Positions 2,338-43,982 of a stretch of DNA of 64,000 nucleotides are shown here, piece by piece. Each line of letters opens with the position of its first letter. The stretch's first letter is position 1. Source of the stretch: Octopus sinensis (Eukaryota); contig NC_043011.1 of NCBI RefSeq assembly GCF_006345805.1, positions 56,618,464 through 56,682,463 of the forward strand, in the 5' to 3' direction. The notes beneath the pieces were generated by a model. The model was not told the origin of the DNA, ran no database searches, and saw nothing but the letters and a program-made list of their open reading frames with translations. Made by a program: the position numbers and the translations under genes.

Positions 2338-3433
2338 ATATACCTCTCCCCTTTCTCTCTCTCTCTCCCCTTTCTCTCTCCCCTTTCTCTCTCTCTCCCC
2401 TTTCTCTCTTCCCCTTTTCTCTCTCTCTCTTCCTTTGCTTCTCTTTCTTTTCTTTTCCCTCTTCTCTGTCACGTGACTGTTGGCCGAAATCTGCCTTTCA
2501 GCTCCTGACCCTCGTCGTTTTACATCGTTGTTTTTCGTCCGCCGCTATAAAGGCTTTTTCCAATGCGCCAGAGAAAAATTTGTTTGCTTGTTATCAGTCG
2601 TAAAGACACTTGTTGTTTTCACACGTTAATGCTTCGTATTTCATGTTCTGTATTCATTATTGTTTTTTTGTTTTTTTTGTTTTTATATCTGTCCCTTTTG
2701 CTGTCCTGGTGTTCGTATGCATTCGTCCTTCTTCCAGGAAATCTACGCTTCCAGCTTAGTTTTTCTAATGCTCGTTGCTTAGTTTTTCTTGGAGGCTGGC
2801 CGTGATCTAGTAATCTCAAGATTAATCAGCCGAAATTACTACGATGATCGGTTCTTGACTGAAGACTGAGGGGTTCGAATGTCCTGTCCATGTTTATTGT
2901 TCGTCTTCTAGAGTATACGTTCTTGTCCATGTTGTATTTTTCTACATACCTTAATATATATATATATATATATATGCTTAAATACATATGTACACACAAA
3001 CATACAGACACATATGGGAATAAAAAATACACATGCCTAATGAGGAATATGATGAAGTAAAGGGGAGACTGATAGGTAAATCAAATGGTTGAAAAAAGCA
3101 TAAGTATATGAAATGAAACAATAACAATTTAGGGTCTGTCTGTCTTATCTTCAACATCCTTATGAAATTGTCCATGCATTCTTTTGTTATCATCATCATC
3201 ATCATCGTCATCATTATCATTTGTTACATCCGAAGTGCAACAAGCTAGCAGAACCATTAGCATGCCAGTGACATTTCTTCTGGTTTTATGTCCTGAGTTC
3301 AAGTTCTACTATGGGGAGTTCTGCCTTTCACTCTTTTTGGGCCATTGAAATTAGTACCAGATGAGCCCCTCAGGTTGATGTCAACATCTAACCCTCTCTC
3401 TAGCCCCCCTCTCTCTTTATTTCTTTTCCTATT

Positions 3434-10588: not shown

Positions 10589-13500
10589 ATACATATATAT
10601 ATATAGAGAGAAAGAGAGAGATCGAGAGAGAGAGGAGCCTTTCAGCTGCTCAGGGGTTTGGTGGATGGAAGTGTATTTGTGGGTGTGTGGGCATATAAAT
10701 TTATGTGCTTTCATCCATACATGCATTATATACTTAACTTCACATAAAAACACATACACACACTTACTTATACATATACACAGCTTCCTCCACATGCACG
10801 CATGCACTTTCGATATATATAGTATTTATTAATTTTTTCTTTACTTTTAATTATATTTTATTACATTTATTTATCGTAATTAAAAGCAATCAATTCTCAC
10901 TCTAAACTCCAAAAGGCCTTCTATTTCAGTTATAATAACATTTATCTTTGCCAAGAAGGATTAAATTGTTTTGCTAATTATAATATATATTATTGCAATT
11001 AATTTAATGTACCATCCAAATTTATATGCTATGGAAGAATTAATTTTCCTCAAATAGGCATTCATTTATATGATGTTTGCTTGTCTGAACTCTCCTCTTT
11101 AAATGTTACTCTTATATTTTGTGATTTCATTACGATTGGGAGACTGGGTGTTGTAGGGTAGGGAGCTGAAAGAGCATAAATCCATGAGGCACAATAATTA
11201 TTACTAATTATAAAATATTGTTAACAAGCCAAATTACCACAAAATGTTTACTCAAACTAACAAAAAATTGTTTACAGTACGCTGGATGTTATGTGGGGAA
11301 GTCACATCATCTCGTTATATCCTTCTTACCCAGCATACATAATCCACACCTGATATATATCTTTCATTATTTAATGACTGGTTTTTGCCTTTAAGAAATA
11401 TTTCTTTAATTATCTTAATGAAAAATTTCCTTAGAAAGATGAAAGGAATGTTAACAAAGTCCCATGTGCTTGTCAGCTAATTGCAGTGGGTGGATGACAA
11501 CAAAGTCATAGCAGTGGTGATGTGCCACCCCTGATGGCCAATAATAGCTACACAAAACATCACAGCCAAAAATAAGAGTTTTACATCTTGTATGGCAATA
11601 CTCTTGACCAAAACATAAACAACCATACAGTTGAACTGAAAAAAGACAAAGTTGAAATACGGTGCTCCTATAACGTAGTTTGTTTCTGATAAATTCATGG
11701 TTTCATACTTTATTCTAGTATATTGTCACAACATTTTACTTACATTCACAGAATCACACATTTTTTCTGAAAAACCAGTTTAAAATATCTTTCATCATCA
11801 CCGTCGTTTAACGTCCGTCTTCCGCGCTAGCACGGGTTGGACGGTTTGACCGGGGTCTGGGAAGCCAGGGGCTGCACCAGGTTCCAGTCTGATCTGGCAG
11901 AGTTTCTACAGCTGGATGCCCTTCCTAACGCCAACCACTCCGTGAGTGTAGTGGGTGCTTTCTACGTGCCACCTGCACAGGTGCCAGGGGGGTCCGGCAT
12001 CGGCCGAGGGGTCCGGCATCATAAAACTTACTAAATTTGTTTTTTCCACAAAATATACTTGTTAAATATGGATATGTCTTAAGCAAAGATACATCATACA
12101 GCTTGACAAAATATGGTACATTCGTACATCCATACATACAGTCGTATATAAATGCAAATATCTTCATGCACATGTATATGCATTCAAAGTTACACATGCA
12201 CATACATCTGCTCTTTTGTACATTCATTCAAACACTCAAGACCCAAGTGTTGTTATGGAAGATTTCTTAAATTGACTGAATCGTTATTTGAGCAAAATGT
12301 TAAAGAAAAGAACTAAAAAAAAAAATACAAATGAAATTATTTAATACATTAAAAAACAATAAGAGGTTCATTTCAAAACAATTAGTGTTTTTCACAAATA
12401 ATAGAAATATGAAATCACAAAATGCACAATGTGTAGAATAATCTTGTAAGAAGATTTTAGGAAAATAAAAAGCGAAAATTTTAGGAAAATAAAAATAAGA
12501 AAAAAGAGTGGAAATTTTACCAGTGAGTGTGTTATATTATAAGGCACAAAAAGAAAATGACTCTCCCCAGACACAACAGAATATGTTTATGTTTGTATAG
12601 CAACTTTTATAAATGAATTAATGCCATATAAAAGTTCTTGTCTGCCGTTTCTCTTTTTATATATGTATCTGTGTGTGAACATTATGATGATGATGATGAT
12701 TTTTATCCACTACACTAACAATTCCCCCCCCCCCTGTTCTGCTTGTCAGCAATACACCACAGCAAAGAGGTTGAGTTCTTTGATTTGTAGAGAAGTAAAT
12801 GGAACCATCAAATATTGCGATAAGTTGAGTAGGGAAATCAATAAGAGTTAGTGTGGCTGCTAGAAGTCAGGATAATGATTCCATTATCACAATGAAGAAT
12901 TACTTCTGGTTTGTGTCGAACTGTTTGAAGTAGCAAGCAGTAAAATCTTTCAAATGTGTATAATTCTTGGAGATAAACATGAATTTTGTGGGATAAATTG
13001 AGTTTGAGCAAACGTAAAGACAATTACGGTAATTCCTTAATCAGGAAAGTGCATAGAACCAGGACTGTAGCTTAACTTTGGTTTGAGTGAATGAAGAAGA
13101 AATGAATATATTCTTTGCAATTCTTCCCTTTATTAGCATTATTCAAGGATAATTGACATTTGCAATTATTACTAACAGGAGGTTGGTGCCACTAGAAAAG
13201 AAAAATTAAAGCAGATTCTGTTAGTTTTTGGCAAATGTGTAGCAGTAGCCAGTTGTGTGTGTGTGTGTGTGTGTCTGTCTCTGCCCGTCTGTCCTTTGTC
13301 ATTGCATTTCAGTGAAAGATGTCAATACTGGCAGGTGTGATATTTGTTCTGCCCAAATTACACAGGTGCTTCCTTATCATTCCCCACCATCCAAAACAAG
13401 TGTTTACTTCATTGAGAACCTGTAAACGATGACAATTTTGTTCAAATATCAAAATGTTGTAGGAAAAATGATAAATAAAAAGTTTGTTACCAGCAAAAAG

Positions 13501-19889: not shown

Positions 19890-20197
19890 CTTCTGTGCCT
19901 GTGGCACATAAAAAGCACCATCCGAACGTTGCCAGCGCCGCCTTGGCTGGCACGTTAAAAGCTCCAACCGATCGTGGCCGATGCCGGACCCCCCCTGGCA
20001 CCTGTGCAGGTGGCACGTAAAAAGCACCCACTACACACGCGGAGTGGTTGGCGTTAGGAAGGGCATCCAGCCGTAGAAACTCTGCCAGATCAGACTGGAG
20101 CCTGGAGCAGCCCCTGGCTTCCCAGACCCCGGTCGAACCGTCCAACCCGTGCTAGCGCGGAAAACGGACGTTAAACGATGATGATGATGATGATGAT
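19890..20197 (+). mobile_element. RTE-tail repeat family C ending in (GAT)n. Other copies: ~9150-9335, 11795-12020(-), 14180-14464, 19003-19098, 27215-27674, 36024-36317(-), 46231-46394, 48260-48445(-), 48792-48960(-), 57263-57422(-), 63900-64000
   Basis: Shared AAAGCACCCACTACAC...GGTTGGCGTTAGGAAGGGCATCCAGC...GGACGTTAAACGATGATGAT, also present at the end of the RTE fragment 1815-2337. Confidence 0.85.
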
Positions 20198-37100: not shown

Positions 37101-37616
37101 TATGTATATGTGTGTGAGTATACATACAAACACACACACATACATATATGTGTATATAGGTGCACATACATACACATATACATTTGTGTACACATATGTC
37201 CATACATTTGCATATGCATGCACACGCACATACATATATGTATGTATATATATATATATATATAAATATATATATACACACACACACCACACACATACAT
37301 AATTCACACATGTGTATATACACACATGTATGTGCACACATATACATATATATGGCAGAATCGTTAGCACGCCGGGCGAAATGCTTATCGGTATTTCGTC
37401 TGCCGCTACGTTCTGAGTTCAAATTCCGCCGAGGTCGACTTTGCCTTTCATCCTTTCGGGGTCGATTAAATAAGTACCAGTTACGTACTGGGGTCGATAT
37501 AATCGACTTAATCTGTTTTGTCTGTCATTGTCCTCTCTGTGTTTAGCCCCTTGTGGGTAGTAAAGAAAGACATATACATATATATAAATATGCACACACA
37601 TGCATATACATATATA

Positions 37617-37670
<54 letters not shown>

Positions 37671-37813
37671 GTGAAATAGACAGATGAATAATCTTGTAGT
37701 AGATTAATCAAAAGTTAACCGATACCTAGTAGCAAAAATCACAGCAGTGAACAGCACGTTGAGGTACAACCATCTGGCGTTGCAAACCGTGCGTTGGTGC
37801 GGATAATTGAAAT

Positions 37814-38250
37814 TAAAACATTATTGGTGAATTGAAGAAATGAGCTGAACGCAGATTGAACAGAAATCGTTTATTTCATTCTAACGTGTTTCGAAAGGCA
37901 CAAATTACCAAAATCCGATTGAATAATGGGACCATATTGTGTCTTTCTCTTCAGGAAGAAAAAGGAAATCCGTTGGAAAAACAAAAACAGAACAGAGGCA
38001 GAGCAAAAAACAAATCGAACTGTGCTCCTAAGAGCCAGGCTCTTAGGAGCACAGTTCGATTTGTTTTTTGTCTGCCCTGTTCTGTTTTTGTTTTTCCAAC
38101 GGATTTCCTTTTTCTTCCTGAAGAGAAAGACACAATATGTCCCATTATTCATCGGATTTTGGTAATTTGTGCCTTTCGAAACACGTGTAGAATGAAATAA
38201 AACGATTTCTGTTCAATCTGCGTTCAGCTCCATTTCTTCAATTCACCAAT

Positions 38251-38259
<9 letters not shown>
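37814..38259. repeat. Near-perfect palindrome, ~222 bp arms, 1-nt spacer at 38037
   Basis: Arms are reverse complements around CTAAGAGCC-A-GGCTCTTAG and differ only by about 7 single-base indels. Confidence 0.97.
38111..38197 (+). ncRNA. Type I hammerhead ribozyme-like motif (Penelope/retrozyme type) with intact core; inverted copy on - at ~37873-37963
   Basis: TTTCTTC-CTGAAGA-stem II (GAAAGACACAA/TTGTGCCTTTC)-GAAA-palindromic stem III ACACGTGT-cleavage triplet GTA-GAA(T)GAAA closing stem I. Confidence 0.7.
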
Positions 38260-38290
<31 letters not shown>

Positions 38291-43172: not shown

Positions 43173-43982
43173 CAGGGTACAATGGATAAATTGCTGCTAT
43201 TTTATATTTTTAATTTCCGGCATGTGCATTGTTTGGTTTTGATTTTGTCGACTGCACAGCATAGTAGGGTCAGTTGGGCACCATCTATGAGAAAACCAGC
43301 ACCATGACACAATTCACTCTGCCAGAAAACGACATGCTGTACTGCTTGACATTTGTGCTAGAAGCGCCAATATGAACATCTCAGAGTGTTTGGGTGTCAA
43401 GCTGAGGATAGTGCAATCTGAGGACATGTACTGAGAGTGATAAAAATCAAACATCCAGTCAACATCCTCCATTCATCTTCACACACAGCTTCAGACTCAG
43501 CACAGAGGCCTACATCAAGTGCCTGGAGGAGGCAGTGCTGCCTATGTCTGGCAACATGACTCTGCACTATGCCACACATGTAAGAGAACCCAGTCATGTC
43601 CGTCAGACAATTTCTGTGACCACATCACCTCTAACATCTGGCCACCTAACTCCCCCGACTGCAATCCCCTTGATTATTATGTGCAGGGTACAGTTGAGCG
43701 AGAGACCAACAAAACTCCTTGTAACACCAAATATGAACTGAAGGCAAAGATTGTGGCAGCATTCACAAACTTAATCAAGGAGACTGTCCAGACGAGTTGC
43801 AAGAGATTCCAAAGTCTTCTGGAGGCCGTGGTTGAAGCCAATGGCGATTTTATTGAATAAATTTACTCTTTAGTATTTCAAGATATTTTATGTAATTTTG
43901 GTAAATATATCTATTAAAATAAGATGTCAGTGTTATTTTCAGTTCTGTGTAATTTAGACAACAGTTTATTCACTGCTTCCTA
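43173..43982 (+). mobile_element. Internally deleted Tc1/mariner-superfamily DD37D (maT) transposon
   Basis: ORF 43519-43860 has QHDSA...WPPNSPDCNPLDYYV with 37 residues between the 2nd and 3rd catalytic D, ending VEANGDFIE*; degenerate TIRs CAGGGTACAATGGATAAATTG / CAGTTTATTCACTGCTTCCTA flanked by TA. Confidence 0.85.

What the first reader, a model, noticed from the sequence alone, without database searches (positions are those of the whole stretch)
37814..38259. ~445 bp palindrome carrying a hammerhead ribozyme in each arm
Seen: two ~222 bp arms around a 1-nt spacer. The right arm has a complete type I hammerhead (CUGAAGA 38118-38124, 11-nt stem II, GAAA 38178-38181, self-complementary ACACGUGU stem III, GUA cleavage site after 38189). 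The left arm has the same motif on the minus strand, with one base missing in stem III. Known: Penelope-like elements and retrozymes carry hammerheads with short palindromic stem III that act as dimers, and Penelope insertions often have inverted 5' pLTR copies. Inference: this is a young, non-coding Penelope/retrozyme-type unit. A read-through transcript from either strand could self-cleave or snap back into a ~220 bp dsRNA (Dicer/ADAR substrate).
Basis: partly seen in the sequence, partly recalled or inferred. Interest (0 to 1): 0.75.

Follow-up and report, generated by a model that had tools for sequence, protein, structure and literature searches.

The report
Two-armed Penelope insertion with twin hammerheads
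This palindrome is two back-to-back tail ends of a young, very abundant Penelope-type jumping gene, each with a predicted self-cutting (hammerhead) RNA motif; the spot itself is ordinary, but the family's many copies suggest that both halves were likely copied from one probably capped RNA, which bears on an open question of how these elements insert.

Summary
The palindrome and the hammerhead motif are real, but they are not a stand-alone non-coding unit. They are the centre of a 591-bp head-to-head insertion (37669-38259) of a young Penelope-like retrotransposon (3.64-kb unit, RT plus C-terminal GIY-YIG, about 3,000 hammerhead copies) in (TA)n. The left arm carries a further 148-nt tail. The fold is backed by compensatory stems in other families of this genome; cleavage is untested and Rfam gives no hit. 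Inverted ends with a tail are a known Penelope footprint, and this scan saw it before on other DNA (e1-9514361, e1-8807173). The family adds more. One arm ends at a short and one at a long site in 58 of 61 classifiable pairs. At least 124 arms stop at an initiator-like site, mostly with an extra G (likely the cap). The partner arm never passes that site (0 of 25 loci; 38% baseline). No excess of arms stops at the ribozyme cut. This favours both target strands priming on one capped sense RNA over the published antisense self-priming idea. The family is Hydra-like but lacks the Hydra linker cysteines and still targets (TA)n.

The parts
37610..37668 (.). (TA)n target tract, left
   Evidence: sequence
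37669..37813 (-). 148-nt tail of the element (145 nt here); its outer end is the 'long' end
   Evidence: 95% to the tail of sister copy L033; alignment
37814..38036 (-). left arm: 3' UTR/pLTR of the element, continuous with the tail
37862..37961 (-). left hammerhead motif (CUGAAGA 37954-37948); G16.2 of stem III missing, likely an assembly error
38032..38043 (.). head-to-head junction; eroded CCATGG palindrome of the element, about 7-12 nt downstream of the inferred start site
38038..38259 (+). right arm: 3' UTR/pLTR of the element, ending at the 'short' end
38053..38057 (+). AGTTC, at +28..+32 from the inferred start site; fits the DPE consensus RGWYV (consensus recalled)
38111..38197 (+). 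type I hammerhead motif: stem I 38111-38117/38190-38197 (one bulged U), core 38118-38124, stem II 38125-38135/38167-38177, GAAA 38178-38181, palindromic stem III 38181-38188, predicted cut after A38189
   Evidence: covariation between families
38260..38281 (.). (TA)n target tract, right
   Evidence: sequence

Best explanation
The palindrome is the centre of a two-armed, 5'-truncated insertion (37669-38259) of a young Penelope-like retrotransposon in a (TA)n tract, and it was likely made when both cut target strands primed reverse transcription at two fixed sites 148 nt apart on one, probably capped, sense RNA. Steps: (1) inferred: a pLTR promoter starts a capped RNA about 12 nt upstream of the palindrome centre, running through the hammerhead, the short site, the tail and the long site; (2) from published work on another PLE: the RT-endonuclease cuts both strands of AT-rich DNA and starts cDNA at two internal RNA sites that bound the tail; (3) shown for this family: one arm ends at each site; (4) inferred: here both cDNAs ran to the RNA's 5' end, their 3' ends annealed through the self-complementary CCATGG, and repair left a near-perfect palindrome; (5) shown: arms do not pile up at the hammerhead cut, so cut linear RNA is not a favoured template. 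The hammerhead is a passenger of the pLTR, predicted to cut poorly as a monomer and better as a dimer or with protein.
For: Family identity: unit of 3492 + 148 nt, RT and GIY-YIG motifs, 33-40% identity to 20 unnamed proteins with Hydra-type motifs. One short plus one long end: 41 of 43 classifiable pairs, p 1e-10 against a coin toss; 17 of 18 in a second sample and 9 of 9 classifiable long loci. (TA)n at 87 of 90 outer ends. Start-site stop: 124 arms have a non-C base before AGTTTCGCC against 1,300 that run through; 72 G, 26 A, 2 T in the first 100 listed (my count); 30 of 30 fetched end there, none is a substitution. The partner arm starts upstream of that site in 0 of 25 loci with a mappable partner, against 38% of arms overall; in the unselected sample the two arms are coupled (12/3/4/22, odds ratio 22, p 1.2e-4). 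Two diagnostic positions agree between arms in all 22 pairs where callable; 0.43% substitutions within pairs against 1.7% between. The short-end arm reaches further 5' in 16 pairs and the long-end arm in 15, and 8 long-end arms hold tail sequence only, which a single fold-back cannot give. Cut site: 10 of 20 hits end there against 10 of 28 at a control site 4 nt on (read by eye). Frangieh 2024 (PMC11167929, parts 1-2 of 4 read): two RT start sites bound the tail, both strands are cut and extended, ribozyme cleavage is not needed.
Against: All mechanism is read from genome footprints; no biochemistry and no raw RNA reads. One pair (L052) has an arm starting at the hotspot and a partner far upstream, at a 10-nt microhomology. 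Three pairs break the short/long rule (L050, L061, L211), and 15 of 60 loci show one arm only, some with a tiny partner by eye. Five loci (L032, L037, L081, L086, L226) have arms running further upstream than one start-site transcript allows, so multimeric or circular templates or template jumps also occur. Arm likeness could come from gene conversion or one active source per cell. [quoted passage not shown] The extra G could be non-templated addition at an uncapped end. An earlier scan note (e1-9539494, another genome, unchecked) read two halves as coming from different parent copies.
Confidence: 0.6

Rival explanations
1. Two separate RNA molecules, perhaps held together by the palindromic hammerhead stem III, are each primed once, one at the short and one at the long site.
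For: ACACGUGU self-pairs at -10.3 kcal/mol and is kept in unrelated families (but it was part of the search pattern). The PLE protein is modelled as a dimer in PMC11167929. Two templates avoid one RT having to displace the other's cDNA.
Against: Independent RNAs should mix start-site-bounded and long arms; 0 of 25 do. Naiad elements make the same inverted structures without canonical hammerheads (PMC8557442, section 6 read).
Confidence: 0.2
2. One cDNA or an antisense RNA folds back and primes on itself (the self-priming proposal of Arkhipova 2013), and the endonuclease then trims one arm at the short site.
For: Symmetric junctions are in excess: 5 of 41 outside the start-site zone against 0.47 in permutations (p 5e-5), and 4 of 18 within 10 nt in the second sample. 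They lie on short palindromes. The short site sits beside ATT, the cut preference in PMC11167929.
Against: Most junctions are asymmetric in either direction; arms with tail only are paired with short-end arms that hold no tail to copy from. The extra G at a sense-strand initiator-like site points to a sense template. Annealing of two cDNA ends at a palindrome also gives symmetric joins.
Confidence: 0.1
3. The 445-bp palindrome is itself a mobile non-coding unit (retrozyme or fold-back element) or a selected hairpin RNA gene.
For: 23 palindromes share this centre; short arms keep the DPE-like site and the hammerhead.
Against: The junction position varies from copy to copy and grades into full coding copies; each palindrome has one tail; no head-to-tail short array; the initiator is lost at this locus; no sign of selection on this copy was found or tested.
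Confidence: 0.06
4. The palindrome is a long-read fold-back or assembly artefact.
For: Indel-only differences between the arms look like consensus errors.
Against: The flanks differ, the two ends differ by exactly the tail, and the same layout recurs in dozens of loci.
Confidence: 0.02

Closest known systems
Hydra clade of EN+ Penelope-like elements (Craig et al. 2021, PMC8557442; sections 6 and 11, passages, supplement parts 2 and 58 and term look-ups read)
   Same: RT then C-terminal GIY-YIG; RIRW, DKT and YRDD; CxxC and CxH around the conserved E and N; no CCHH; hammerhead near the 3' end (several have CUGAAGA and cut after GUA or GUU); (TA)n target; inverted 5'-truncated copy.
   Different: The CxCX5C linker is absent; a long Ser/Asn-rich linker is present; unit 3.64 kb against mostly under 3 kb; tail 148 nt against 30-40 nt; long stem II with a 31-35-nt loop. 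It is not the listed Hydra-1_Obim (2,507 bp, other hammerhead stems; compared by eye).
Penelope inverted pLTR plus optional tail (Adineta vaga, PMC3846280, abstract and passages; D. virilis, PMC2377424, passages)
   Same: Head-to-head inverted repeats with palindromes at the junction; tail on one inverted pLTR; promoter with initiator and downstream element inside the pLTR; N-rich inserts between RT and EN.
   Different: PMC3846280 explains the palindromes by self-priming on an antisense template; the footprints here point to a capped sense template and two primings.
PAc (Poseidon from Anolis) in vitro system (Frangieh et al. 2024, PMC11167929, parts 1-2 of 4)
   Same: Two internal RT start sites bounding the tail; both strands extended; hammerhead cleavage dispensable.
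   Different: PAc sites lie inside the ORF and a few tens of bases apart; no coupling of one site per strand was reported.
Metazoan non-LTR retrozymes (PMC7229834, passages; bioRxiv 10.64898/2026.07.22.740005, part 1 of 5)
   Same: Type I hammerhead with a weak palindromic helix III.
   Different: Retrozymes are short head-to-tail non-coding arrays; this is the truncated end of a coding element, head to head.
LINE-1 twin priming (recalled; not read here)
   Same: Both target strands prime on one RNA and the cDNA ends join by microhomology.
   Different: LINE-1 arms cover different, non-overlapping parts and the second site is not fixed; here both sites are fixed and the arms overlap.

Membership tests
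Type I hammerhead ribozyme | Core CUGANGA, GAAA and NUH in type I order, with G10.1-C11.1 | tested here: met
   (right arm); the left arm lacks G16.2 in the assembly
Type I hammerhead ribozyme | Stems I and II kept by compensatory change | tested here: met
   63 hits with another base after the core, control 0. In the 30 fetched, stem I pairs 3-4 of 4 in 29 (L172 fails) and stem II 5-8 of 8, with unrelated sequences in at least three other families. The family itself is too young to covary.
Type I hammerhead ribozyme | Match to an Rfam hammerhead model | tested here: not met
   no hammerhead family among 85 matches at E<=1; the long stem II and loop may explain it (inference)
Type I hammerhead ribozyme | Self-cleavage after H17 | not testable with these tools
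   needs a transcription assay; monomer fold -12.9 against minimum -15.9 kcal/mol
Type I hammerhead ribozyme | Loop 1-loop 2 tertiary contact | not tested
   not examined
EN+ Penelope-like element | Single ORF with RT and C-terminal GIY-YIG | tested here: met
   motifs read in three natural copies across frames; 33-40% identity to 20 full-length relatives. Pfam gave no hit for two fragments. The assembled copies carry one-base frameshifts.
EN+ Penelope-like element | Partial tandems (pLTR), inverted 5'-truncated copy, tail at one end, hammerhead in the pLTR | tested here: met
   77 tail-to-ORF junctions; 45 of 60 loci two-armed
Hydra clade | RWK-like and DKT motifs; no CCHH in the endonuclease; CxxC and CxH around E and N | tested here: met
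   RIRW(L), SDKT, CNLC..E..N..CPH against PMC8557442 section 11 and figure S7 text, by eye
Hydra clade | CxCX5C linker before the endonuclease | tested here: not met
   absent in the ORF frame of all 48 arms examined (5 flagged only in other frames or flanks); present in 17 of 20 relatives by pattern and in the other 3 by eye. Hence filed as Hydra-like, not as a member.
Hydra clade | Insertion into (TA)n | tested here: met
   87 of 90 outer ends
Hydra clade | Placement in the RT tree | not tested
   the named reference proteins were seen only in the paper's supplement
Non-LTR retrozyme | Short (150-450 bp) head-to-tail non-coding units | tested here: not met
   head-to-head arms of a 3.64-kb coding unit
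Non-LTR retrozyme | Circular RNA | not testable with these tools
   only contigs were available

The most novel reading that the evidence does not exclude
Penelope-like elements insert by coupled twin priming: one RT per target strand, at two fixed sites on the same capped sense RNA, so the 'optional tail' is simply the spacing of the two sites and every inverted pLTR is the second cDNA. This family records it in thousands of copies, down to the cap-derived G, and keeps (TA)n targeting without the linker zinc finger thought to confer it.
Probability: 0.45. Interest if true: 0.7.

Novelty: new variant of a known kind. Interest (0 to 1): 0.45.

Why it matters
The locus itself is an ordinary Penelope footprint. 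How these elements make inverted ends and a one-sided tail is still open: one paper proposes antisense self-priming, another found two internal RT start sites in vitro but did not link them to the inverted arm. A young family with about 3,000 near-identical ends gives counts that separate these models and names exact sites (start, short, long, cut) for a direct assay. Loss of the linker cysteines with (TA)n targeting intact tests the proposal that the linker directs microsatellite insertion. I did not find the one-RNA, two-site reading in print in the searches; subscription papers and bioRxiv supplements were not searchable and may hold it.

Tried and rejected
Rfam: no hammerhead hit, only hairpin matches to miRNA models below their cut-offs. 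Pfam: no family for two ORF fragments. Sequencing runs: no RNA holder on record; 14 of 23 rows were guessed RNA holders and all were contigs. Contigs of guessed RNA runs X1 and X7 cover all 30 bins of the unit, and one X7 contig crosses the tail-to-ORF junction; this is family-level, may be DNA, and is not used as evidence of expression. Hammerhead-cut RNA as a favoured template: rejected, no excess of ends at the cut; this does not exclude circles. Symmetric junctions as proof of one RNA: rejected, because they fall on short palindromes where two cDNA ends could anneal. A conserved start site in the second hammerhead family: its upstream region was too decayed to read. Homodimer prediction: no result, no verdict. 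No host gene or tRNA was seen in the window. Target-site duplications cannot be read in (TA)n.

Full report
Observation. The arms 37814-38036 and 38038-38259 align over 226 columns with no substitution and seven one-base gaps. The right arm holds a complete type I hammerhead motif: stem I of 3 + 4 pairs around a bulged U, CUGAAGA 38118-38124, stem II of 10 pairs and one A.C mismatch, GAAA, the palindrome ACACGUGU, and a predicted cut after A38189. The monomer fold is 3 kcal/mol above the minimum, and stem I has a pairing probability of 0.03; two copies of stem III pair at -10.3 kcal/mol. Cervera and de la Pena (PMC4209133, passages) describe such weak palindromic helices as working in dimers. 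Rfam gave no hammerhead hit. The left arm lacks G16.2; its other differences from a sister copy are mostly one-base deletions and short-read contigs carry the base, so an assembly error is likely but not shown for this locus.

Is the fold more than chance? The family is too uniform to covary (42 of 45 cores identical in the first 30 loci). I searched the genome for the same core with another base at the start of stem II: 63 hits, reversed control 0. A few are variants of this family; the rest fall into at least three other families with unrelated stems. In the 30 fetched, stem I pairs 3-4 of 4 positions in 29 and stem II 5-8 of 8; one family switches GAC/GUC to AAC/GUU in stem I. Stem III was part of the pattern, so its conservation is not independent.

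What it belongs to. A search with one arm gave 46 matches among 40 scored of 352 candidates, the full-length ones 97-98% identical; a 25-mer of the core occurs 2,983 times. Long copies define a unit of 3,492 nt plus a 148-nt tail. The window's left arm continues through that tail to 37669, so the insertion is 37669-38259, between (TA)n tracts. Three natural copies, read across their one-base frameshifts, show RIRW, DKT, FDIASFYP, YRDD and a C-terminal VYQ...YIG endonuclease with CNLC, E, N and CPH. These are the marks listed for the Hydra clade (PMC8557442; compared by eye). Twenty unnamed relatives are 33-40% identical. Contigs of public runs hold one more base at several places in the ORF of L047, so many frameshifts are likely assembly errors. 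The tail runs directly into the ORF's 5' UTR at 77 places, the partial-tandem pLTR arrangement.

One Hydra feature fails. The CxCX5C linker is in all 20 relatives (17 by pattern, 3 by eye) but in none of 48 arms of this family, where a long Ser/Asn-rich stretch ends in GCRSRNEY; a related family in L180 (52% identity in the endonuclease) lacks it too. (TA)n targeting persists (87 of 90 outer ends). I therefore call the family Hydra-like; no tree was made.

Insertion anatomy. I fetched 60 loci around the listed core hits on contig C1 up to 79 Mb, leaving out two fetched earlier. Forty-five are two-armed and head to head; 41 have one short and one long end, 2 have two short ends, 2 are unclassifiable. 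Eighteen further pairs, picked as opposed hits, gave 17 short/long and 1 long/long; ten long loci gave 9 short/long and 1 cut off. Either arm can reach further 5' (16 against 15, 10 level), and 8 long-end arms hold tail only. A single fold-back cannot give a tail-only arm beside a partner that has no tail.

A start site in the truncation record. Fifteen of 82 arms begin within 16 nt around unit position 3256. Genome-wide, 124 arms have a base other than the element's C before AGTTTCGCC, against 1,300 that run through. The base is G in 72, A in 26 and T in 2 of the first 100 listed, and all 30 fetched end there. The site reads CAGTT, initiator-like, with AGTTC at +28..+32, a fit to the DPE consensus (both consensuses recalled). 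An extra G at an RNA's 5' end is the known trace of copying the cap (recalled). D. virilis Penelope has its promoter, with initiator and DPE, in the pLTR (PMC2377424, passages). In several junctions the G is also templated by the partner, as expected if a cap-derived C pairs there.

Both arms from one RNA. The 30 hits are 27 loci; 25 have a mappable partner, and none of these partners starts upstream of the site, whereas 38% of arms in the unselected sample do. In that sample the arms are coupled (both upstream 12, one 7, neither 22; odds ratio 22, p 1.2e-4). Two diagnostic positions agree within all 22 pairs where callable. Against: L052 breaks the pattern at a 10-nt microhomology; five loci have arms longer than one start-site transcript allows, so multimeric or circular templates or jumps exist; gene conversion or one source per cell could explain arm likeness.

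The hammerhead leaves no footprint. Twenty arms have a base other than A before the cut; 10 end there. At a control site 4 nt on, 28 hits include 10 ends (read by eye). Cut linear RNA is thus not a favoured template, in line with Frangieh 2024, where ribozyme mutants inserted normally. Circles would leave no such mark and are not excluded.

This locus. Twenty-three palindromes in the genome share this centre; 18 of the other 22 keep CATG there, 8 as a perfect GAGCCCATGGGCTC. The window's single A is the eroded form. Most likely both cDNAs reached the RNA's 5' end and annealed through CCATGG (inference).

Comparison and verdict. Inverted pLTRs with a tail on one side are described (PMC8557442 figure 2 legend; PMC3846280), and earlier notes of this scan reached the same class for other loci (unchecked notes). 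The locus is ordinary. The family's statistics argue for two primings on one capped sense RNA rather than the antisense self-priming proposed in PMC3846280, and show (TA)n targeting without the linker cysteines. These are inferences from footprints and need the assays listed.

Noticed in passing
window 37353-37518, also 18214, 44498, 44736, 53457, 59359: A 166-nt dispersed repeat in six copies (63-92%, family D14), SINE-like by its look; unrelated to the palindrome.
   Followed up: no
window 43444-43860: Open frame with WPPNSPDCNPLDY, a Tc1/mariner transposase motif (recalled).
   Followed up: no
window 11792-11992 and 19990-20190: 201-nt inverted pair, 95% complementary, 8 kb apart; probably two copies of a common repeat.
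   Followed up: no
L151-L180: At least three other hammerhead families with the same core and stem III but unrelated stems I and II; the largest is AT-rich, older and ends in (TA)n. Their coding partners were not found.
   Followed up: partly
L180: Two other Hydra-type endonuclease fragments; one is 52% identical to this family and also lacks the linker cysteines.
   Followed up: partly
L047:4134-4145; window centre: GCCATGG GC TCT TAG: an ATG in good context 9 nt after the inferred start site opens a three-codon upstream frame (Met-Gly-Ser-stop).
   Followed up: no
L031, L033, L035, between RT thumb and endonuclease: A Ser/Asn-rich in-frame stretch of over 100 residues, like the N-rich inserts of Adineta Penelope elements (PMC3846280).
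   Followed up: partly
L069, L072, L077, L079, L087, L108, L125: Long-end arms that stop at tail positions about 59-64, a possible second RNA 5' end or stall site.
   Followed up: no
L226, L032, L037: Arms of up to 7.7 kb, more than two units, which need a multimeric or circular template or repeated jumps.
   Followed up: partly
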